Origin: Escherichia coli
Lineage (GTDB): Bacteria > Pseudomonadota > Gammaproteobacteria > Enterobacterales > Enterobacteriaceae
Assembly: GCF_003334335.1 (NCBI RefSeq)
Contig: NZ_QOWQ01000048.1
Direction: 5' to 3' (one strand)
DNA: 30,915 bases
Below, piece by piece: positions 998 through 8,938 of this stretch. The translations under genes and the position numbers were made by a program. The notes under the pieces were generated by a model, which was given only the letters and a program-made list of their open reading frames with translations, did no database searches and was not told where the DNA came from. Every line of letters starts with the position of its first letter. The first letter of the stretch is position 1.

Positions 998-1219
998 ATG
1001 GCAGACCTCATTGATTCAGCATCAGAAATTGAAGAATTACAGCGCAACACAGCAATAAAAATGCGCCGCCTGAACCACCAGGCTATATCTGCCACTCATT
1101 GTTGTGAGTGTGGCGATCCGATAGATGAACGAAGACGCCTGGCCGTTCAGGGTTGTCGGACTTGTGCAAGTTGCCAGGAGGATCTGGAACTTATCAGTAA
1201 ACAGAGAGGTTCGAAGTGA
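998..1219 (+). CDS. TraR/DksA-family C4 zinc-finger protein (lambda Orf73-like)
   Basis: A 73-aa protein with CxxC...(17)...CxxC (CCECG...CRTCASC), typical of the TraR/DksA zinc finger. Its stop overlaps the next ORF's GTG (GTGA). Confidence 0.8.
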   Translation: MADLIDSASEIEELQRNTAIKMRRLNHQAISATHCCECGDPIDERRRLAVQGCRTCASCQEDLELISKQRGSK

Positions 1220-1467
1220 GCGTAATTCACTCTCAGGCACTGCGTGAAGCGGCAGAGCAGGCAATGCATGACAACTGGGGATTTGACGCGGACCTTTTCC
1301 ATGAGCTGGTAACACCATCGATTGTGCTGACACTGCTGGATGAACGGGAAAGAAACCAGCAGTACATCAAACGCCGCGACCAGGAGAACGAGGATATTGC
1401 GCTAACGGTGAGGAAACTGCGTGTTGAGCTGGAGACAGCAAAAATCAAAACTCAACGAGCAGCGTGA
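1216..1467 (+). CDS. Ea22-like protein, N-terminal part, ended by an in-frame TGA at 1465
   Basis: GTG start overlapping the upstream stop; the 83-aa product resembles the conserved Ea22 N-terminus (recalled, not searched). The same frame stays open after the TGA for 53 more codons, to a TAG at 1627..1629. Confidence 0.6.
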   Translation: MSVIHSQALREAAEQAMHDNWGFDADLFHELVTPSIVLTLLDERERNQQYIKRRDQENEDIALTVRKLRVELETAKIKTQRAA

Positions 1468-1765
1468 GTAGAAGGTGTTATCTCGGATGGAAGTAAGCGT
1501 ATTGCTGAACTGGAGGCCTGGGTTGAATACACAAGAGCTGCATACGTAAGAGCAAAAGACAAGGGAGATTTGATCAGAGTTATTACCCGACAACCAACGG
1601 GATTTTACGCTTACGTACCATGTAATTAGGAATCCTTGAAGTGGCAGCCTAACTGCGGATACACTGAAATGGCGATTTGGTAACATGTTTCGCACAAGGC
1701 TGTTACTACGCTTAAAGATAATCAGCCATGATTAAACGCTTTGTAAAAAGTAAAAGGAAATTACA

Positions 1766-2380
1766 ATGAAAAAATCAATACTAATTTTAGGGCTTACGTT
1801 AATTGTCTCATCTCAAATACCATCGGCAATGGCAAAAAATGAATCAAGACTTTGGGTTGTTGTTGATCGAACGGAAAGACATACCTGCCCTTCAAGTAAA
1901 TGTGGAGTGGCTGGGAAACTATTTTTCAGGGAAGGCGTAGATTTTCTAGAAAAAAAAGGTGAATGGGTTCGTATAACTGAGCCATATTCAGCCTCATGTG
2001 TGGGAGGGGAAAGCGAATATATTAAAGAAGGTAATAAATCCTGCACAAGAAAAAACGGAATCGTCAATGGCAAGTTTTCAGAATGGGTTAAACTTAGTGA
2101 TCTTAGCAGTGAAAGGCCATCAGATCCTGCTGAAAATGCGAGCGGAGATGATACTTTAATCAAAGGATCTGATGACTACCGTATATACAAAAAAGAGTTT
2201 TCTTCGGCAGCTAGGAAGTTAATAAACGAAGGGGTCTGCACGGAAAGCGACTTTAAGGAAATCGGAGGGTGGATGGCATCAAGCAATAAGGGGAAAAACA
2301 TCTATTTCACATATTGCGGAGGAATGACGTTGTCGAACAGAATATACCTAGACGTTAAAAGTGGAAAGACTTTTAGATAA
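1766..2380 (+). CDS. Hypothetical secreted (periplasmic) protein, 204 aa, AT-rich accessory gene
   Basis: SD AAGGAAA 8 nt upstream of the ATG. N-terminal signal peptide MKKSILILGLTLIVSSQIPSAMA with an AMA-K signal peptidase I site and no lipobox. The mature part has 7 Cys. Codon usage is visibly AT-rich compared with the flanking genes. Confidence 0.75.
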   Translation: MKKSILILGLTLIVSSQIPSAMAKNESRLWVVVDRTERHTCPSSKCGVAGKLFFREGVDFLEKKGEWVRITEPYSASCVGGESEYIKEGNKSCTRKNGIVNGKFSEWVKLSDLSSERPSDPAENASGDDTLIKGSDDYRIYKKEFSSAARKLINEGVCTESDFKEIGGWMASSNKGKNIYFTYCGGMTLSNRIYLDVKSGKTFR

Positions 2381-2451
2381 TATGATATTACCAATGACAG
2401 TATTAATTTAATGCCTCCATAGAATTATCTCTAGGAAGTATGTATAAGAAA

Positions 2452-2488
2452 AGCCCGCACAATGAGCTGCTGCGGGCTTTGTGTTATT
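2452..2488 (+). terminator. Intrinsic terminator downstream of the secreted-protein gene
   Basis: AGCCCGCA-(11-nt loop)-TGCGGGCT followed by TTGTGTTATT. Confidence 0.55.
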
Positions 2489-2673
2489 CGCCATATTTTA
2501 TGAAGCAAATACGACACTATAGATAATTAAGCGTTGCTGGTTGTCGATTCCTCACTCACTCCTGTTGATGGCTCTCTTCTTGTATGTGCCATTGAAGGGT
2601 AATATCGAGTAAAAAGATACCGGAAGTATCCGCGCCGCCATGATTGTCTTTCTCCTAATGCAGGAAAAGCAGA

Positions 2674-3012
2674 ATGGCTAAATCATCAGCAGAGCGCAAA
2701 GTCGATCAGAGAGCCAAGCAAGCATCATCCGGTATGCGTAAGCTGGAGCTTGTACTTGATGCTCAGGAAATTGAAATGCTGGATCGTAACTGAGCCACGC
2801 GCCGCTTCAGGCATGCGCCTTACGAGTTTGGTGAGTACATCGCGTTACTGAGCCGCCAGGATGATGCACGTGTGCGCTGGCGTATAAAATCGATCAGCAG
2901 AAAACGTTGCGGTAAGTGCGGCGAGAGAGTTCCTGTTAATTCATGCCCGTGTAATGGTGACTCACAATGCTGGGTGACCAAAGGCTGGCACGAAACAAAA
3001 TTAATGATATAA
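2674..3012 (+). pseudogene. Cys-rich small-protein ORF interrupted by a single in-frame TGA (2791..2793); possibly an ea8.5-type gene
   Basis: Frame 1 is open from 2644 to 3009 apart from the one TGA. The C-terminal half carries CGKC...CPC...C, a zinc-ribbon-like pattern. SD AGGAAA precedes the ATG at 2674. The ORF track shows no intact ORF of 60 aa or more on either strand here. Confidence 0.45.
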
Positions 3013-3040
3013 ATCTCTGTGACATGTCACGGAGGCGGCA

Positions 3041-3469
3041 ATGAAATTAGACCAGCAATATCTAAAAGATCTACTTATCGCATTCGAAAAAACTCATGGC
3101 CCTGACACGATGCTTAGTGAACTAGAGGATAATGGCTTTAATAGATATGACCAAAATTTTATTTTCCATATGCGATTATTATGCGACTACGAATTAATAG
3201 TCAGGGTTGATGGAAAACCTGGGTTCGGTCATATAATGTCCAACGAGTTAGGGGAAGGTGTTGGATATAGTTGGATCGAAGTACCACTGAGGTTGACAGC
3301 AAGAGGGCATGATTTTATTGCTGACTTGCGTCAAAAGGAGGTCTGGCAAACTATAAAAACAAACTTTAAGGATGAGGGAATTAGTACACTAATAAGTGTT
3401 TCAAAATCACTAGCAAAAGGCTTTGCAAGGAAAAAGATAAAAGATATTACAGGAATAGATATTGAATAA
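3041..3469 (+). CDS. Hypothetical cytoplasmic protein, 142 aa, AT-rich accessory gene
   Basis: Strong SD GGAGG 5 nt upstream. No signal peptide or transmembrane segment. Followed by its own terminator. No catalytic motif that I recognise. Confidence 0.7.
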   Translation: MKLDQQYLKDLLIAFEKTHGPDTMLSELEDNGFNRYDQNFIFHMRLLCDYELIVRVDGKPGFGHIMSNELGEGVGYSWIEVPLRLTARGHDFIADLRQKEVWQTIKTNFKDEGISTLISVSKSLAKGFARKKIKDITGIDIE

Positions 3470-3513
3470 TTCTTAGCATCAGCAACTACTGCCTTTGGTG
3501 GAAATTATATCTG

Positions 3514-3540
3514 AACTCGCTACGGCGAGTTTTGTTTTAT
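3514..3540 (+). terminator. Intrinsic terminator downstream of the 142-aa gene
   Basis: AACTCGC-tacg-GCGAGTT followed by TTGTTTTAT. Confidence 0.6.
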
Positions 3541-3551
3541 GGAGATGATAA

Positions 3552-3719
3552 ATGCACTTCCGAGTCACAGGTGAATGGAATGGAGAACCATTCAACAGAG
3601 TTATCGAAGCAGAGAACATCAATGACTGCTATGACCACTGGATGATATGGGCGCAGATAGCACATGCAGACATAACCAATATTCGAATTGAAGAACTGAA
3701 AGAACACCAAGCCGCCTGA
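3552..3719 (+). CDS. Hypothetical 55-aa protein upstream of xis
   Basis: GGAG 8 nt upstream of the ATG; the ORF ends inside a hairpin plus T-run. Confidence 0.4.
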   Translation: MHFRVTGEWNGEPFNRVIEAENINDCYDHWMIWAQIAHADITNIRIEELKEHQAA

Positions 3720-3732
3720 TGGCGGTTTTTTC
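3709..3732 (+). terminator. Terminator-like hairpin just upstream of xis
   Basis: CCGCC-tgat-GGCGG followed by TTTTTTC. In lambda-type logic this would be read through by antiterminated pL transcripts. Confidence 0.45.
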
Positions 3733-3758
3733 TTGCGTGTAATTGCGGAGACTTTGCG

Positions 3759-3977
3759 ATGTACTTGACACTTCAGGAGTGGAACGCTCGCCAGCGACGC
3801 CCAAGAAGCCTTGAAACAGTTCGTCGATGGGTGCGCGAATGCAGGATATTCCCTCCTCCGGTTAAGGATGGAAGAGAATATCTGTTCCACGAATCAGCGG
3901 TAAAGGTTGACTTAAATCGACCAGTAACAGGTAGCCTTTTGAAGAGGATCAGAAATGGGAAGAAGGCGAAGTCATGA
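3759..3977 (+). CDS. xis: Excisionase
   Basis: The 72-aa product MYLTLQEWNARQRRPRSLETVRRWVRECRIF... matches lambda Xis as I recall it; it overlaps the int start by 23 nt, as in lambda. Confidence 0.95.
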   Translation: MYLTLQEWNARQRRPRSLETVRRWVRECRIFPPPVKDGREYLFHESAVKVDLNRPVTGSLLKRIRNGKKAKS

Positions 3978-5025
3978 GCGCCGGGATTTACCCCCTAACC
4001 TTTATATAAGAAACAATGGATATTACTGCTACAGGGACCCAAGGACGGGTAAAGAGTTTGGATTAGGCCGAGACAGGCGAATCGCAATCACTGAAGCTAT
4101 ACAGGCCAACATTGAGTTATTTTCAGGACACAAACACAAGCCTCTGACAGCGAGAATCAACAGTGATAATTCCGTTACGTTACATTCATGGCTTGATCGC
4201 TACGAAAAAATCCTGGCCAGCAGAGGAATCAAGCAGAAGACACTCATAAATTACATGAGCAAAATTAAAGCAATAAGGAGGGGTCTGCCTGATGCTCCAC
4301 TTGAAGACATCACCACAAAAGAAATTGCGGCAATGCTCAATGGATACATAGACGAGGGAAAGGCGGCATCAGCCAAGTTAATCAGATCAACACTGAGCGA
4401 TGCATTCCGAGAGGCTATGGCTGAAGGCCATATAACAACAAACCCGGTCGCAGCCACTCGCGCTGCAAAATCAGAGGTAAGGAGATCAAGACTTACGGCT
4501 GACGAATACCTGAAAATTTATCAAGCAGCAGAATCATCACCATGTTGGCTTAGACTTGCAATGGAACTGGCTGTTGTTACCGGGCAGCGAGTTGGTGATT
4601 TATGCGAAATGAAGTGGTCTGATATCGTAGATGGATATCTTTATGTCGAGCAAAGCAAAACAGGCGTAAAAATTGCCATCCCAACAACATTGCATGTTGA
4701 TGCTCTCGGGATATCAATGAAGGAAACACTTGATAAATGCAAAAAGATTCTTGGCGGAGAAACCATAATTGCATCTACTCGTCGTGAACCGCTTTCATCC
4801 GGCACAGTATCAAGGTATTTTATGCGCGCACGAAAAGCATCAGGTCTCTCCTTCGAAGGGGATCCGCCAACCTTTCACGAGTTGCGCAGTTTGTCTGCAA
4901 GACTCTATGAGAAGCAGATAAGCGATAAATTTGCTCAACATCTTCTCGGGCATAAGTCGGACACCATGGCATCACAGTATCGTGATGACAGAGGCAGGGA
5001 GTGGGACAAAATTGAAATCAAATAA
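3955..5025 (+). CDS. int: Tyrosine integrase, lambda Int type
   Basis: The 356-aa product MGRRRSHERRDLPPNLYIRNNGYYCYRDPRTGKEF... is essentially lambda Int by recollection; its 3' end faces the att site. Confidence 0.97.
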   Translation: MGRRRSHERRDLPPNLYIRNNGYYCYRDPRTGKEFGLGRDRRIAITEAIQANIELFSGHKHKPLTARINSDNSVTLHSWLDRYEKILASRGIKQKTLINYMSKIKAIRRGLPDAPLEDITTKEIAAMLNGYIDEGKAASAKLIRSTLSDAFREAMAEGHITTNPVAATRAAKSEVRRSRLTADEYLKIYQAAESSPCWLRLAMELAVVTGQRVGDLCEMKWSDIVDGYLYVEQSKTGVKIAIPTTLHVDALGISMKETLDKCKKILGGETIIASTRREPLSSGTVSRYFMRARKASGLSFEGDPPTFHELRSLSARLYEKQISDKFAQHLLGHKSDTMASQYRDDRGREWDKIEIK

Positions 5026-5113
5026 TGATTTTATTTTGACTGATAGTGACCTGTTCGTTGCAACAAATTGATAAGCAATGCTTTTTTATAATGCCAACTT
5101 AGTATAAAAAAGC
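5026..5113. other. attL (B-O-P') junction: P' arm with Int arm-type sites and the 15-bp common core
   Basis: The core TTAGTATAAAAAAGC at 5099..5113 is the reverse complement of the lambda att core GCTTTTTTATACTAA. Arm-type sites ATTTTGACTG and ATAGTGACCT lie at about 5034..5053. Host B-side sequence AGGCTTCA follows the core. Confidence 0.85.
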
Positions 5114-6448: not shown

Positions 6449-6660
<212 letters not shown>

Positions 6661-6676
6661 ATTCACATGGCGCTTT

Positions 6677-8938
6677 TTACATCTGACGGTTTTTATTGAA
6701 GTTAATCAAACTACCCGCCTTGATAATCTCGCGCTCTTCAGCAGTCAGACTTTCCATATAGAGCGTAATTTCCGTTACCGGCGCATCTTCATGGATCACA
6801 TAACCTTTAAACGTCGTACCCGGATTATCCAGCGCCGCTTTAATGCCAGGGATGTAAATGTAATCCCCCACTTCAAAGGTTGGTACTTCCGCCATTTGCA
6901 GCGGTAACATCCCCCAGTTGATGACGTTAGAACGATAGCGTTTAGTCGCGTACTCCTCGGCAATATTCGCCAGACCGCCAATCACACGCTGGCAGCTCGC
7001 CGCCTGTTCACGCGCAGAACCATCGCCTGGTTTCACCGCATAGACCATGCTGCCAATTTCAGTTTGCAGCGGATCAATATGCTCCTGACCAGCAATCTGC
7101 TTAATGCGCGCAAACACCTCTGTCAGCTCGCTGACATTCCCCGCCAGACGCTGATTTTCCAGCTCAGCAGTCGCTTTACTTCTGCTAACATAACCGGGAT
7201 CGCGGCGAGACAGGGTAAACTCCGCCAGACCAATCGGATTTGAACGATAAGAAGAGGTTTCACCGGAAGGAATCAGTTCGTCGGTGGTGGTCACTTCGTC
7301 GAGGATCTTCGAGCACACTTTCAGGACGATATTGTCAGTCAGCGCACCCAATTCCGGCCAGTCTTTAATGTTCGGCCCGTAAATCAGCGGTTGCTGAGTT
7401 GCCCCTTTCACAAAGCCCTGATAAACACGGTTTTTATACGGCGTTACATCGAAGGCGTACTCCGGCACGTTGTCCCAGCAATCAAGTTCGCTGGCAGAGG
7501 TTAAATAGCCACCGTTTGCCGCAGTCGCAGCGATAGAACGAGCGTCCATCAACGCCACCGCTGACATCTGCCCATTAGCTGGCTTAGAGCCTTCGCGGTT
7601 CGGGAAGTTACGCGTGGTGTGGCGAATACTCAAACCGTTGTTGATTGGCGTATCGCCCGCGCCAAAGCATGGGCCGCAGAACGCGGTTCTGATGATTGCG
7701 CCTGCGCCAATCAAATCTGCTACCACACCTTTTTTGGCGAGATCCATAAACACCGGCTGTGATGACGGGTAAACTGCCAGCGAGAAGGTGTCATTGCCAC
7801 AGGATTGACCGCGCAGTGCATTCGCCGCCGCGATGACGTTTTCGTAGTTACCGCCAGAACAGCCCGCGATAATCCCCTGCTGCACTTTCAGGCGACCATT
7901 TTCCACTTTATCCAGCAGCGAGAGTTTGGCTTTACCGTGCGCCACGCGTTCGGACTCAATTTCAATCTCACGCAGAATGTCGGTCAGGTTCTGGTTCAGT
8001 GTGTCGATTTCATACACGTTGCTCGGGTGGAACGGCAGCGCAATCATTGGTTTGATGGCGCTTAAATCAACGCTGATGCAGCCATCGTAGTACGCCATCG
8101 GTTGAGGGTTAAGCTGGCAGTAATCCTGGCCGCGACCGTGCAGCGCCAGCCAGTTATGGACTTCTTCATCGGTTTGCCAGACAGAACTTAAACAGGTCGT
8201 TTCAGTGGTCATCACGTCAACGCTGTTACGGAAATCGGTAGAGAGCGCGCTAACGCCCGGTCCAACGAACTCCATGACTTTGTTTTTGACGTAACCGTTT
8301 TTGAACACCGCGCCAATGATAGCCAGCGCCACATCCTGTGGCCCCACATACGGCGCAGGTTTTCCGGTCAGATGCACCGCAACCACGCCCGGATAGTCGA
8401 TATCCCAGGTGTCATTAAGCAGCTGTTTTACCAACTCACCGCCGCCCTCACCGACTGCCATTGTCCCTAATGCACCGTAACGGGTGTGGCTGTCTGACCC
8501 GAGGATCATTTTGCCGCCGCCTGCCATCATCTCACGCATATATTGATGGATGACCGCAATATGCGGAGGCACAAAAATACCGCCATAACGCTGGGCCGCC
8601 GATAAACCAAAAACATGGTCATCACCGTTAATAGTGCCGCCGACGGCGCAGAGTGAGTTATGGCAGTTGGTCAGCACATACGGCAGCGGGAAACGTTCCA
8701 TACCGGACGCTTTAGCGGTCTGTACAATACCAACAAAGGTAATATCGTGAGAGGCTAATGAATCAAACTTAATTTTAAGTTTATCCATATTTCCGGACGT
8801 ATTATGCGAAGAGAGAATAGACCAGGCAATAGTGCCTTTTTTGGCTTCTTCTTTTTTAATTTCGCCGGTGAAATGTTCTTCGGCAATTATTTCGTTATTA
8901 CTGGCGAGAAACACGCCTTTTTCAGATAACTTGATCAT
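6677..8938 (-). CDS. ybhJ: Aconitase-family putative hydratase
   Basis: Matches E. coli YbhJ. Start set at the internal ATG (MIKLSEK...), which has GGAG 8 nt upstream, rather than the ORF-track start at 8962. Confidence 0.9.

What the first reader, a model, noticed from the sequence alone, without database searches (positions are those of the whole stretch)
3041..3469. Orphan 142-aa cytoplasmic protein immediately upstream of the xis–int module
A second AT-rich moron with a strong GGAGG SD and a dedicated terminator. It has no transmembrane segment and no nuclease, ATPase or kinase motif that I can recognise. Its N-terminal ~45 residues are faintly reminiscent of small phage-associated proteins of unknown function (possibly DUF2513-like; a weak guess from memory). 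Using lambda distances as I remember them, removing about 455 bp here would restore lambda-like spacing between the ea8.5-type ORF and xis, which suggests a discrete insertion.
Basis: inference. Interest (0 to 1): 0.6.

Follow-up and report, generated by a model that had tools for sequence, protein, structure and literature searches.

The report
DUF2513 winged-helix cargo gene in prophage
The 142-codon ORF is a real, well-conserved accessory gene of a lambda-like prophage that encodes a small winged-helix protein of the uncharacterised DUF2513 family; it is ordinary as a kind of thing (phage cargo gene), and it gives a testable lead towards phage-defence biology.

Summary
Window 3041-3469 (+) is a genuine protein-coding gene. 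It has a GGAGG Shine-Dalgarno 5 nt before the ATG, 36% GC against 50% for the window, and no indels across genera. Synonymous sites are saturated while pN is about 0.16.

The protein is a full-length DUF2513 (PF10711, PHROG 585) member. RefSeq annotates it as such in about 143 of 5,426 complete E. coli genomes.

AlphaFold gives a confident winged helix plus three C-terminal helices, and a linker-fused copy predicts a defined dimer. No solved structure, defence model or paper assigns a function.

Three details of the finding are wrong:
- orf55 lies between this gene and xis.
- The terminator belongs to the lambda backbone.
- The upstream ORF is a phrog_536 pseudogene, not ea8.5.

The gene sits inside a 2-kb replacement of lambda's ea22 C-terminus, ea8.5 and tL4.

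Across the family the gene travels as a promoter-like leader, ORF and terminator, which is a moron layout. It has no fixed partner and often lies beside defence genes. Its domain is fused in relatives to TIR, AbiTi-like and PDC-S60-like effectors.

Most likely it is a dimeric nucleic-acid-binding accessory factor. The mechanism is unproven.

The parts
2983..3040 (+). Conserved 58-nt leader that travels with the gene in E. coli, Citrobacter and Serratia. In this window it overlaps the last codons of the upstream phrog_536 pseudogene.
   Evidence: The leader is 69-72% identical between genera, against 42-51% at third codon positions. The downstream flank is not conserved.
2985..2990 (+). -35-like hexamer CTGGCA (4 of 6 matches), 17 bp before the -10-like element. 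Predicted only.
   Evidence: Read from the sequence. It is conserved as TGGCA(C/T) in many leaders. The tool's own promoter scan did not report it.
3005..3013 (+). Extended -10-like element TGaTATAAA, ending 27 nt before the ATG. Predicted only.
   Evidence: A -10-like hexamer lies 23-38 nt before the ATG in 28 of 33 non-redundant family contexts, against 49 of 430 control ORFs.
3019..3030 (+). Perfect 12-bp palindrome GTGACATGTCAC between the -10-like element and the SD. Its role is unknown: candidate operator, or a junction sequence.
   Evidence: It is retained with one mismatch in Citrobacter and in Serratia. It also precedes a different 70-aa gene in other prophages. It is not rare by itself: 10 perfect 12-bp palindromes occur in the window against 7.5 expected.
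3031..3035 (+). Shine-Dalgarno GGAGG, 5 nt before the ATG.
3041..3469 (+). The DUF2513 / PHROG 585 gene: 142 aa, 16.3 kDa, pI 5.8. It has a winged helix (residues 1 to about 86) and three C-terminal helices (87-137).
3470..3503 (+). 3' flank specific to the cassette. It has no hairpin, and it replaces the tL4 hairpin of lambda, 434 and HK022.
   Evidence: Alignment A3. tL4 is annotated in the HK022 and 434 records.
3513..3540 (+). Intrinsic-terminator-like hairpin (GAACTCGC-TACG-GCGAGTTT) plus T-run. It belongs to the lambda-homologous backbone and lies 43 nt after the stop codon.
   Evidence: Lambda homology starts at 3504.
1515..3503 (+). Mosaic segment that replaces lambda's ea22 C-terminus, ea8.5 and tL4. 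It carries a 204-aa secreted or lipoprotein-like ORF, a UmuD-like fragment, the phrog_536 pseudogene and the DUF2513 cassette.
   Evidence: blastn against lambda; PGAP annotation of the same region in NCTC9040; PHROGs.

Best explanation
ORF142 is an intact accessory ('cargo') gene of a lambda-like prophage integrated at the lambda att site next to ybhC. It lies in the exo-xis region, at the position that ea8.5 and the tL4 terminator occupy in lambda.

Shown:
- It encodes a soluble 16-kDa protein of the DUF2513 / PHROG 585 family.
- The predicted fold is a MarR/PadR/HxlR-like winged helix followed by three helices.
- Purifying selection has kept it intact across Enterobacterales prophages.
- It has no conserved partner gene.

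Inferred from models and sequence patterns:
- The protein is a homodimer.
- The gene is a self-contained transcription unit: an extended -10-type promoter about 27 nt before the ATG, a short leader carrying a palindrome, an SD, the ORF and a terminator. That is a moron layout, so it can be expressed independently of pL, possibly in the lysogen. It is also read through from pL during lytic growth.

Inferred, weakest step:
- The dimer binds nucleic acid through the winged helix and its basic C-terminal helices.
- It acts as an accessory factor in phage-host or phage-phage conflict, for example by recognising or repressing incoming or competing DNA, or by regulating itself and other genes. It is not a core developmental gene.
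- This reading rests on three observations. The domain recurs as the N-terminal module of TIR-, AbiTi-like- and PDC-S60-like-effector proteins. The cassette sits in prophage cargo hotspots beside AbiU, OLD/GajA-like, kinase and TIR-like genes. Its layout is that of a moron.
For: Identity:
- Pfam DUF2513, E=4.2e-10, full length.
- PHROG 585, E=2e-34.
- 113 clusters named 'DUF2513 domain-containing protein'.
- 347 representative hits, 99 of them at E<=1e-10.

Real gene:
- Always 426 nt, no indels, pS 0.75-0.87 against pN 0.15-0.17; Citrobacter-Serratia dN/dS is about 0.08.
- 39 intact 142-aa copies in IMG/VR.
- Present in the isolated phage Chlobot, inside the N-to-int leftward gene array.

Fold:
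- AF2 pLDDT 94.6, pTM 0.86.
- Foldseek best hit is PadR, probability 0.97, E=0.03.
- The conserved PLRLTxxGHxF motif lies at the wing-to-helix junction.

Dimer:
- The linker-fused tandem copy gives pTM 0.84, with both halves above pLDDT 90.

Cassette and moron layout:
- The leader is 69-72% identical across genera, against 42-51% at third codon positions.
- A -10-like element is present in 28 of 33 contexts, a terminator in 19 of 33, and both in 17 of 33. Control ORFs give 11%, 6% and 1.2%.
- Serratia and many other lineages have their own terminator within about 10-45 nt of the stop codon.

No partner: neighbours are diverse.

Conflict link:
- Fusions to the CAP12/Pycsar TIR domain (PF10137, E=1e-20; PADLOC PDC-S35, PycTIR), to AbiTi / PDC-M14B (E down to 5e-7), and to the PDC-S60 N-terminus (E=2e-28).
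- The TIR fusion lies 18 bp after an integrase-family gene.
- Neighbours include AbiU (E=4e-199), an OLD/GajA-like ATPase, a PD-T4-6/Stk2-like kinase and a TIR-like gene.

Region: the exo-xis region is transcribed from pL and is dispensable (PMC4195576).
Against: - There is no functional evidence of any kind. No hit was found in PADLOC or NCBIfam for ORF142 itself, none in PDB by sequence, and no paper was found.
- The winged-helix part is acidic, with net charge -6 over residues 1-100. The family median pI is 5.4. The exposed positions of the putative recognition helix are not conserved basic residues. DNA binding is therefore not assured.
- The promoter is only a pattern match. The tool's own scan found no + strand promoter in 2300-4100. 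My -10 criteria were set after seeing the data, and the 33 contexts are not phylogenetically independent.
- The palindrome is not statistically unusual. It has no further copies in the phage genome. It also precedes an unrelated gene.
- Leader RNA hairpins are no more stable than those of controls.
- At this locus the terminator is backbone DNA.
- Effector fusions are few: 6 representative clusters among about 260 sequences, mostly on short metagenomic contigs.
- The dimer rests on a linker trick, with no interface read-out.
Confidence: 0.5

Rival explanations
1. The gene is an ordinary exo-xis-region developmental modulator. It would be transcribed only from pL as a delayed-early gene. Like ea8.5, ea22, orf60a, orf61 and orf63, it would tune the lysis-lysogeny decision or prophage induction, for instance as a small transcription factor acting on phage or host promoters.
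For: - It occupies the ea8.5 position between the ea22 remnant and orf55-xis, and is co-oriented with the N-to-int array.
- Exo-xis genes are pL-transcribed and affect lysogenisation and induction (PMC4195576).
- Ea8.5 and phi24B gp05 at the same place are also small putative DNA-binding proteins (PMC8614690).
- The fold is a winged helix.
- The tool scan found no promoter on the + strand.
Against: - The same gene sits in quite different places in other prophages: the nin region, next to terminase, next to integrase, and beside AbiU. That is not expected of a factor wired into one developmental circuit.
- The family-wide promoter-like element and terminator argue for independent expression.
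- The effector fusions are unexplained by this reading.
Confidence: 0.25
2. The gene is an anti-defence decoy. Host or mobile-element proteins use a DUF2513 domain as the sensing or regulatory module of single-protein abortive-infection effectors (TIR, AbiTi-like, PDC-S60-like). The phage's stand-alone copy would heterodimerise with them, or compete for their ligand, and so block them early in infection.
For: - The fusions exist, and their DUF2513 domains are 39-43% identical to ORF142, among the closer relatives.
- The protein is predicted to dimerise.
- The gene lies in early operons in all three examined genera.
- The surface is acidic rather than basic.
Against: - No such fusion was seen in Enterobacterales genomes in these searches. 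The fusions came from metagenomes and unrelated contigs.
- The moron layout, and the neighbourhood of defence genes, fit a lysogen-expressed gene better than an early anti-defence gene.
- There is no experimental data.
Confidence: 0.1
3. The gene is the antitoxin or regulator half of a two-gene module (toxin-antitoxin or a defence pair), with the partner gene lying next to it.
For: - Winged-helix proteins often play this role.
- Some distant homologues have a tightly linked neighbour: a 321-aa gene 27 bp upstream in Citrifermentans, a 90-aa gene 14 bp downstream in a Myxococcota MAG, and a TIR-like gene 1 nt upstream in L186.
Against: - In this window the neighbours are a pseudogene upstream and the lambda backbone orf55 downstream.
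- The linked neighbours differ from lineage to lineage, and none recurs.
- In most contexts the gene has its own terminator.
Confidence: 0.05
4. The ORF is not a functional gene. It would be a chance open frame or a decaying remnant in a region full of debris.
For: The surrounding 2 kb holds a truncated ea22, a UmuD-like fragment and a phrog_536 gene with an internal stop. A minority of E. coli copies are truncated or IS1-flanked.
Against: - There is strong purifying selection, and no indels across genera.
- The fold prediction is confident.
- Hundreds of homologues exist.
- The chance probability of the open frame is about 4e-5.
Confidence: 0.02

Closest known systems
Pfam DUF2513 (PF10711) / PHROG 585, proteins of unknown function
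   Same: It matches the models over their full length, has the same length as family members (about 133-144 aa), and has the same conserved PLRLTxxGHxF, F-x-F-H and VW motifs. RefSeq already names it 'DUF2513 domain-containing protein' (WP_000762730 / WP_000762731).
   Different: Nothing differs; it is a member. The family itself has no assigned function, no solved structure found by sequence search, and no paper in the searched library.
MarR / PadR / HxlR-type winged-helix transcription regulators (also TubR, and YjcQ PF09639)
   Different: There is no significant sequence match to these Pfam families or to any PDB chain, and Foldseek E is at least 0.03. The wing is longer, with four strands. 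The winged-helix part is acidic. No ligand or operator is known.
Lambda Ea8.5 (and the exo-xis region genes)
   Same: It occupies the same slot in the leftward early region, between ea22 and orf55-xis. It is small, dispensable-type cargo with a putative nucleic-acid-binding fold.
   Different: It is unrelated in sequence (BLASTP E=11 for the flanking ORF; different PHROGs) and in fold. Ea8.5 is a homeodomain/zinc-finger hybrid according to PMC8614690. Here tL4 is also replaced.
Morons of lambdoid prophages (promoter-gene-terminator cargo units; from established knowledge of Hendrix and Juhala's definition)
   Same: It is a discrete cassette at a mosaic junction with atypical low GC. Across the family it has a promoter-like element before the gene and an intrinsic terminator after it.
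   Different: Promoter activity is unproven. At this locus the terminator is supplied by the backbone. The cassette is co-oriented with pL, so it is also read from the early operon.
Single-protein or two-gene abortive-infection effectors: Cap12/PycTIR-type TIR proteins, lactococcal AbiT (AbiTi), PADLOC candidates PDC-S35, PDC-S60 and PDC-M14
   Same: Relatives of ORF142 carry these effector modules C-terminal to the same DUF2513 domain.
   Different: ORF142 ends after the three helices and has no effector module. It has no PADLOC hit of its own. The PDC families are untested candidates.

Membership tests
DUF2513 (PF10711) / PHROG 585 | Significant match to the family HMM over most of its length | tested here: met
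   Pfam i-Evalue 4.2e-10, model positions 1-100 of 100, residues 2-115. PHROG 585 E=2.3e-34, profile positions 1-127 of 128.
DUF2513 (PF10711) / PHROG 585 | Family-typical length and conserved motifs (F-x-F-H helix, PLRLTxxGHxF, VW) | tested here: met
   Alignments A1 and A7: H43, R84, T86 and G89 are at least 90% conserved. Homologues are 133-144 aa long.
Moron (autonomous cargo unit in a prophage) | Gene absent from related phage backbones and bounded by mosaic junctions | tested here: met
   It is absent from lambda, 434 and HK022. Backbone homology resumes at 3504. The upstream module's homology in other prophages ends at 3005-3035.
Moron (autonomous cargo unit in a prophage) | Own promoter directly upstream | tested here: inconclusive
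   The candidate is CTGGCA, 17 bp, then TGaTATAAA, ending 27 nt before the ATG. A -10-like element is found in 28 of 33 family contexts against 11% of control ORFs. The tool's scan reported none, and there are no expression data.
Moron (autonomous cargo unit in a prophage) | Own terminator directly downstream | tested here: inconclusive
   At this locus the hairpin at 3513-3540 is lambda backbone. In 19 of 33 family contexts a terminator follows within 75 nt, against 6% of control ORFs.
Moron (autonomous cargo unit in a prophage) | Atypical base composition | tested here: met
   GC 36.1% against 49.8% for the window.
Moron (autonomous cargo unit in a prophage) | Expression from the repressed prophage | not testable with these tools
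   This needs RNA-seq or 5'RACE of a lysogen.
MarR/PadR-type winged-helix regulators | Sequence membership (Pfam MarR, PadR or HxlR hit) | tested here: not met
   Only DUF2513 passes. PDB sequence searches found nothing.
MarR/PadR-type winged-helix regulators | Winged-helix fold and homodimer | tested here: met
MarR/PadR-type winged-helix regulators | Sequence-specific operator binding | not testable with these tools
   The palindrome at 3019-3030 is a candidate only. It is not enriched, and it is shared with an unrelated gene.
Lambda Ea8.5 family (claimed for the flanking ORF) | Sequence similarity to Ea8.5 / phrog_6325 | tested here: not met
   BLASTP E=11. The flanking ORF is phrog_536, and Ea8.5 is phrog_6325.
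Known anti-phage defence systems (PADLOC-DB v2) | Match to a defence-protein model | tested here: not met
   There were 0 families at E<=1 for ORF142. Only the fused relatives match, through their extra domains.
Toxin-antitoxin or two-gene module | Conserved adjacent partner gene | tested here: not met
   Neighbours differ among E. coli, Citrobacter, Serratia and 32 IMG/VR contexts.

The most novel reading that the evidence does not exclude
DUF2513 is the sensing or targeting module of a so far undescribed set of single-polypeptide abortive-infection proteins (DUF2513-TIR, DUF2513-AbiTi-like, DUF2513-PDC-S60-like). The widespread stand-alone prophage copies such as ORF142 would be lysogen-expressed trans-acting versions of that module. 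They would act either as a minimal defence or exclusion factor that binds incoming phage nucleic acid or protein, or as a decoy that disarms the fused effectors.
Probability: 0.15. Interest if true: 0.7.

Novelty: new member of a known kind. Interest (0 to 1): 0.4.

Why it matters
The gene itself is already catalogued as DUF2513, so the window adds no new kind of element. The value is in what the follow-up shows about the family.

- It is a compact, confidently folded, dimeric winged-helix protein.
- It moves among temperate phages of Proteobacteria as its own promoter-gene-terminator unit.
- It lands in cargo hotspots beside known defence genes.
- It donates its domain to TIR and Abi-type effectors.

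That makes it a cheap and well-defined candidate for phage-exclusion or anti-defence screens, and for the unresolved biology of the lambdoid exo-xis region. If a function is found it would annotate several hundred prophage genes, including those in about 2.6% of complete E. coli genomes.

Tried and rejected
- NCBIfam and PADLOC on ORF142: no hit.
- PDB by sequence, with the single protein and with the profile: nothing credible, best E=0.09 to unrelated proteins.
- Foldseek against PDB and BFVD: no match at E<=0.001, only generic winged helices.
- Literature searches for DUF2513, PF10711, the WP accessions, phrog_585 and YjcQ: nothing relevant. The search for PDC-S35, PDC-S60, PDC-M14 and AbiTi returned only noise.
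- The profile search in the word-indexed database added little beyond the single-sequence search.
- Left edge at 3027 seen in strain E1433: rejected as a natural cassette boundary, because it is an IS1 junction.
- The 'ea8.5-type flanking ORF': rejected.
- A leader RNA hairpin as a family feature: rejected. Leader folding energy (MFE) is no lower than for 446 control leaders, p=0.35. The window's own hairpin (-10.5 to -11.8 kcal/mol, z=-1.2) is not conserved.
- The palindrome as a regulon operator: no support. No further copies occur in Chlobot beyond chance, and 12-bp palindromes are not rare.
- A conserved partner gene: none found.
The narrower alignment A7 worked.
- An antisense promoter-like site at 3204-3175: not above chance, with 2 sites found against 3.6 expected.
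Full report
**1. What is at the coordinates**

The mechanical ORF list gives one open frame at 3041..3469 on the + strand, 142 codons with an ATG start. No competing ORF of 40 aa or more lies on either strand inside it.

GGAGG sits at 3031-3035, five bases before the ATG. The ORF is 36.1% GC (GC3 31%). The whole window is 49.8% GC, and xis, int and the host gene ybhC are 45-53%. At that composition, 142 stop-free codons have a chance probability of about 4e-5. There is no hydrophobic stretch: the highest 19-residue hydropathy mean is 0.76.

So the observation of a well-signalled, AT-rich, soluble-protein ORF is correct.

**2. Where it sits**

The window starts inside a lambda-type exo gene. 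It runs through xis (3759..3977) and int (3955..5025) to the attachment junction near 5113, and then into host ybhC and ybhJ.

blastn against lambda shows two homologous blocks, both at about 97-98% identity:
- Window 1-1514 matches lambda from exo to the middle of ea22.
- Window 3504-5113 matches lambda from 29333 leftwards, covering a hairpin, orf55, xis, int and attP.

Between these blocks, 1,989 bp of the window (1515-3503) replace 760 bp of lambda, namely the ea22 C-terminus, ea8.5 and tL4.

The replacement holds a 204-aa ORF with a signal-peptide-like N-terminus (1766..2380, phrog_8310). It also holds a 22-codon UmuD-like fragment and a phrog_536 'transcriptional regulator' gene (2674..3012). 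That gene carries an in-frame TGA at 2791-2793, and PGAP marks it 'internal stop' in strain NCTC9040. ORF142 follows it.

Three details of the finding therefore fail:
- The 55-codon lambda orf55 homologue (3552..3719, phrog_676) separates ORF142 from xis.
- The ORF just upstream is not ea8.5-like. BLASTP gives E=11, and the two belong to different PHROGs.
- The hairpin plus T-run at 3513-3540 lies inside the lambda-homologous backbone. Alignment with lambda, 434 and HK022 shows that those phages have two tandem hairpins. The first is the annotated tL4. The window and phage Chlobot have lost the first and kept the second.

It does not describe a clean insertion, however.

**3. Is it a discrete cassette?**

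Yes. The upstream phrog_536 module occurs in several hundred other E. coli prophages in other contexts. There its homology to the window stops at 3005-3035. Backbone homology resumes at about 3504. A boundary at 3027 seen in strain E1433 is an IS1 junction and was discarded.

The same arrangement at 97.9% identity is found in only one isolated phage, Escherichia phage Chlobot. There the gene lies in the N-to-int leftward array. It is also found in 142-143 of 5,426 complete E. coli genomes. ATCC 8739 is 100% identical over 2850-3503.

**4. Is it a real gene?**

Homologues of 133-144 aa are found in Escherichia, Citrobacter, Klebsiella, Serratia, Yersinia, Pectobacterium, Pantoea, Cronobacter, Erwinia and Buttiauxella. 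More distant ones occur in Vibrio, Citrifermentans and Myxococcota. There are 113 clusters at 90% identity. There are also 347 representatives at E<=0.001, of which 99 are at E<=1e-10.

The E. coli, Citrobacter and Serratia genes are all 426 nt with no indels. Synonymous sites are saturated (pS 0.75-0.87) while pN is 0.15-0.17. Where it can be computed, dN/dS is about 0.08.

A minority of E. coli copies are truncated or flanked by IS1.

**5. What the protein is**

Pfam gives DUF2513 (PF10711) over residues 2-115 at E=4.2e-10. PHROGs gives phrog_585, 'unknown function', at E=2e-34. NCBIfam and PADLOC give nothing.

AlphaFold2 with a 115-sequence alignment gives pLDDT 94.6 and pTM 0.86. The predicted elements are:
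- Helices at 5-17, 25-30 and 38-49.
- A four-stranded wing spanning 53-85.
- Helices at 87-97, 99-108 and 114-137.

The nearly invariant residues (H43, R84, T86, G89, within F-x-F-H and PLRLTxxGHxF) fall on the third helix and at the wing-to-helix junction. The same positions are conserved in ArsR, MarR and PadR-type domains; that comparison comes from my own knowledge of those families.

A tandem copy joined by a 30-residue Gly/Ser linker, modelled with a matched alignment, gave pTM 0.84. Both halves were above pLDDT 90 and the linker was below 50. This implies a confidently placed homodimer. The tool gives no interface read-out, so this is indirect.

Against simple DNA binding, residues 1-100 carry net charge -6. 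The family median pI is 5.4, and 196 of 206 members are below pI 7. The conserved basic residues lie mostly in the C-terminal helices.

**6. The cassette's own signals**

A 58-nt leader travels with the gene in all three genera, although the upstream genes differ:

GGCTGGCAcGAAAcaAAATTAaTGaTATAAAtctcTGTGACATGTCACGGAGGcggcaATG

The leader is 69-72% identical between genera, against 42-51% at third codon positions. Similarity stops at the stop codon.

It contains these elements:
- A -35-like CTGGCA (2985-2990).
- A 17-bp spacer.
- An extended -10-like TGaTATAAA (3005-3013).
- A perfect 12-bp palindrome (3019-3030).
- The SD.

The tool's promoter scan does not list this candidate, because the hexamer lacks the final T.

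To test the idea at family level I collected 80 IMG/VR loci and reduced them to 33 contexts with different flanks. The results were as follows:

| Feature | DUF2513 contexts (n=33) | Control ORFs in the same loci (n=430) |
|---|---|---|
| -10-like element 23-38 nt before the ATG (mostly 26-27) | 28 | 49 |
| Hairpin plus T-run within 75 nt after the stop | 19 | 26 |
| Both | 17 | 5 |

Fisher p values run from 1e-13 to 1e-19. The criteria were fixed after I had seen the sequences, and the contexts are related. Even so, lineages with unrelated leaders (L183, L185, L187, L190, L192, L193, L198) show the same layout.

This is the moron architecture.

Two further ideas failed:
- Leader RNA hairpins are no more stable than those of 446 control leaders (p=0.35). 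The window's own hairpin has z=-1.2.
- The palindrome is not rare: 10 perfect 12-bp palindromes against 7.5 expected. It has no extra copies in the Chlobot genome. It also precedes an unrelated 70-aa gene directly after intact phrog_536 in 53 IMG/VR contigs, where the 10-nt TATAAA segment is absent.

**7. Context and fusions**

Neighbours vary widely:
- In Citrobacter the gene is in the nin region, between a dATP/dGTP pyrophosphohydrolase-like gene and dinI.
- In Serratia it lies between an Ea22-like gene and a DEDDh exonuclease next to int.
- Elsewhere it lies before terminase or next to integrases.

No partner recurs. Immediate neighbours in separate lineages include the following:
- AbiU (E=4e-199).
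- An OLD/GajA-like ATPase.
- A PD-T4-6/Stk2-like Ser/Thr kinase.
- A weak TIR-like gene 1 nt upstream.

Six representative clusters carry the DUF2513 domain fused N-terminally to other modules:
- A CAP12/Pycsar-type TIR domain (PF10137, E=1e-20; PADLOC PDC-S35 and PycTIR).
- An AbiTi / PDC-M14B-like module (E down to 5e-7; four clusters).
- The N-terminal module of PDC-S60 (E=2e-28; weak DUF4062 hit).

The TIR fusion lies 18 bp after an integrase-family gene on a small element.

These fusions are few and mostly on short metagenomic contigs. The PDC families are untested candidates.

**8. Interpretation**

Shown:
- This is a real, selected DUF2513 / PHROG 585 gene for a soluble winged-helix protein.
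- It is carried as a discrete low-GC cassette in the exo-xis region, at the ea8.5/tL4 position.

Inferred from models and patterns:
- The protein is a homodimer.
- The gene has its own promoter and, across the family, its own terminator.

Weakest step: I propose that the dimer binds nucleic acid and serves as an accessory factor in phage-host or phage-phage conflict. I put confidence in the combined statement at about 0.5, and much lower for the mechanism alone.

The main rival (0.25) is that it is just another pL-driven exo-xis modulator of lysogenisation and induction. Such a role is reported for ea8.5, ea22, orf60a, orf61 and orf63 (PMC4195576, PMC8614690). The gene's wandering among unrelated genome positions, and its autonomous signals, argue against that.

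The other rivals are:
- An anti-defence decoy of the fused effectors (0.1).
- Half of a two-gene module (0.05).
- A non-gene (0.02, refuted).

**9. Novelty and verdict**

The gene belongs to a catalogued family of unknown function, and RefSeq already annotates it. As a kind of thing, a winged-helix cargo gene in a lambdoid prophage is familiar. I rate it a new member of a known kind, with interest 0.4.

The interest comes from the family-level picture: an autonomous unit, neighbours that are defence genes, and fusions to effectors. That picture makes an uncharacterised but widespread prophage gene directly testable.

Noticed in passing
window 1766-2380 (+): A 204-aa ORF with a signal-peptide or lipoprotein-like N-terminus (MKKSILILGLTLIVSSQIPSAMA). 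It is 39% GC, belongs to phrog_8310 (unknown function), and is intact. It is a second low-GC cargo gene inside the same 2-kb replacement of lambda DNA, and a possible lysogenic-conversion surface protein.
   Followed up: partly
window 2674-3012 (+): A phrog_536 'transcriptional regulator' family gene split by an in-frame TGA at 2791-2793 (39 + 46 codons). PGAP calls it 'internal stop' in NCTC9040, and Chlobot annotates only the 46-aa tail. The intact 112-aa version (L015 2325-2663) has no Pfam hit.
   Followed up: partly
window 1216-1467 and 2534-2602 (+): Gene debris. There is an Ea22-like N-terminal fragment (lambda homology ends at 1514, inside ea22), and a 22-codon UmuD / 'DNA repair protein' fragment. 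The segment is a patchwork of recombination scars around two intact cargo genes.
   Followed up: partly
window 3470-3540, compared with lambda, 434 and HK022 (alignment A3): Lambda, 434 and HK022 carry two tandem hairpin terminators before orf55. The first is annotated tL4 and the second is unannotated. The window and Chlobot have lost tL4 and keep only the second, which has a G-to-A change that turns a G-U pair in the stem into an A-U pair. The second hairpin shares CTACGGCGG followed by a T-run with the cassette terminators of other DUF2513 lineages (for example L163). This could be chance or common origin.
   Followed up: partly
window 2983-3035; L015 2634-2680; 94 IMG/VR contigs (L023-L116): A junction sequence recurs: the phrog_536 3' end (...GGCTGGCAYGAAAC...), then TGTGACATGTCAC, then an SD. 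It is shared by two alternative downstream cargo genes, DUF2513 (39-40 contigs) and an unrelated 70-aa gene (53 contigs). It looks like a recombination linker for swapping cassettes.
   Followed up: partly
L186 (IMG/VR), the ORF ending 1 nt before the DUF2513 gene; L161/L164; L158; L193: Defence-type genes lie directly beside DUF2513 in separate lineages. These are a 307-aa TIR-like protein (weak PADLOC TIR hit, E=7.5e-6) abutting the gene, AbiU (E=4e-199), an OLD/GajA-like ATPase, and a PD-T4-6/Stk2-like kinase.
   Followed up: partly
L018 6009-6974 and L019 (Citrifermentans), upstream of a DUF2513 homologue: A 321-328-aa protein with no Pfam or PHROG hit lies 27 bp upstream of the DUF2513 homologue, in a non-prophage-looking context next to a lexA-imuB-dnaE2 cassette. 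It may be a lineage-specific partner.
   Followed up: no
window 3041-3469 compared with Chlobot / E1433 allele: The two E. coli alleles differ by 8 amino-acid changes and only 3 synonymous changes (H19R, N39D, M66L, N68K, E69A, E100D, T104A, I118M). Several of these lie on the start of the third helix and on the wing. The counts are too small to call diversifying selection.
   Followed up: no
window about 6490-6700: Tandem REP/BIME-like repeats lie between ybhC and ybhJ. They show up as mirrored, internally repeated ORF translations on both strands.
   Followed up: no
window 3709-3728: A second terminator-like hairpin (AAGCCGCC-TGAT-GGCGGTTT plus T-run) overlaps the end of orf55, just before xis. 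It corresponds in position to the t'I terminator annotated in the phage 434 record.
   Followed up: no
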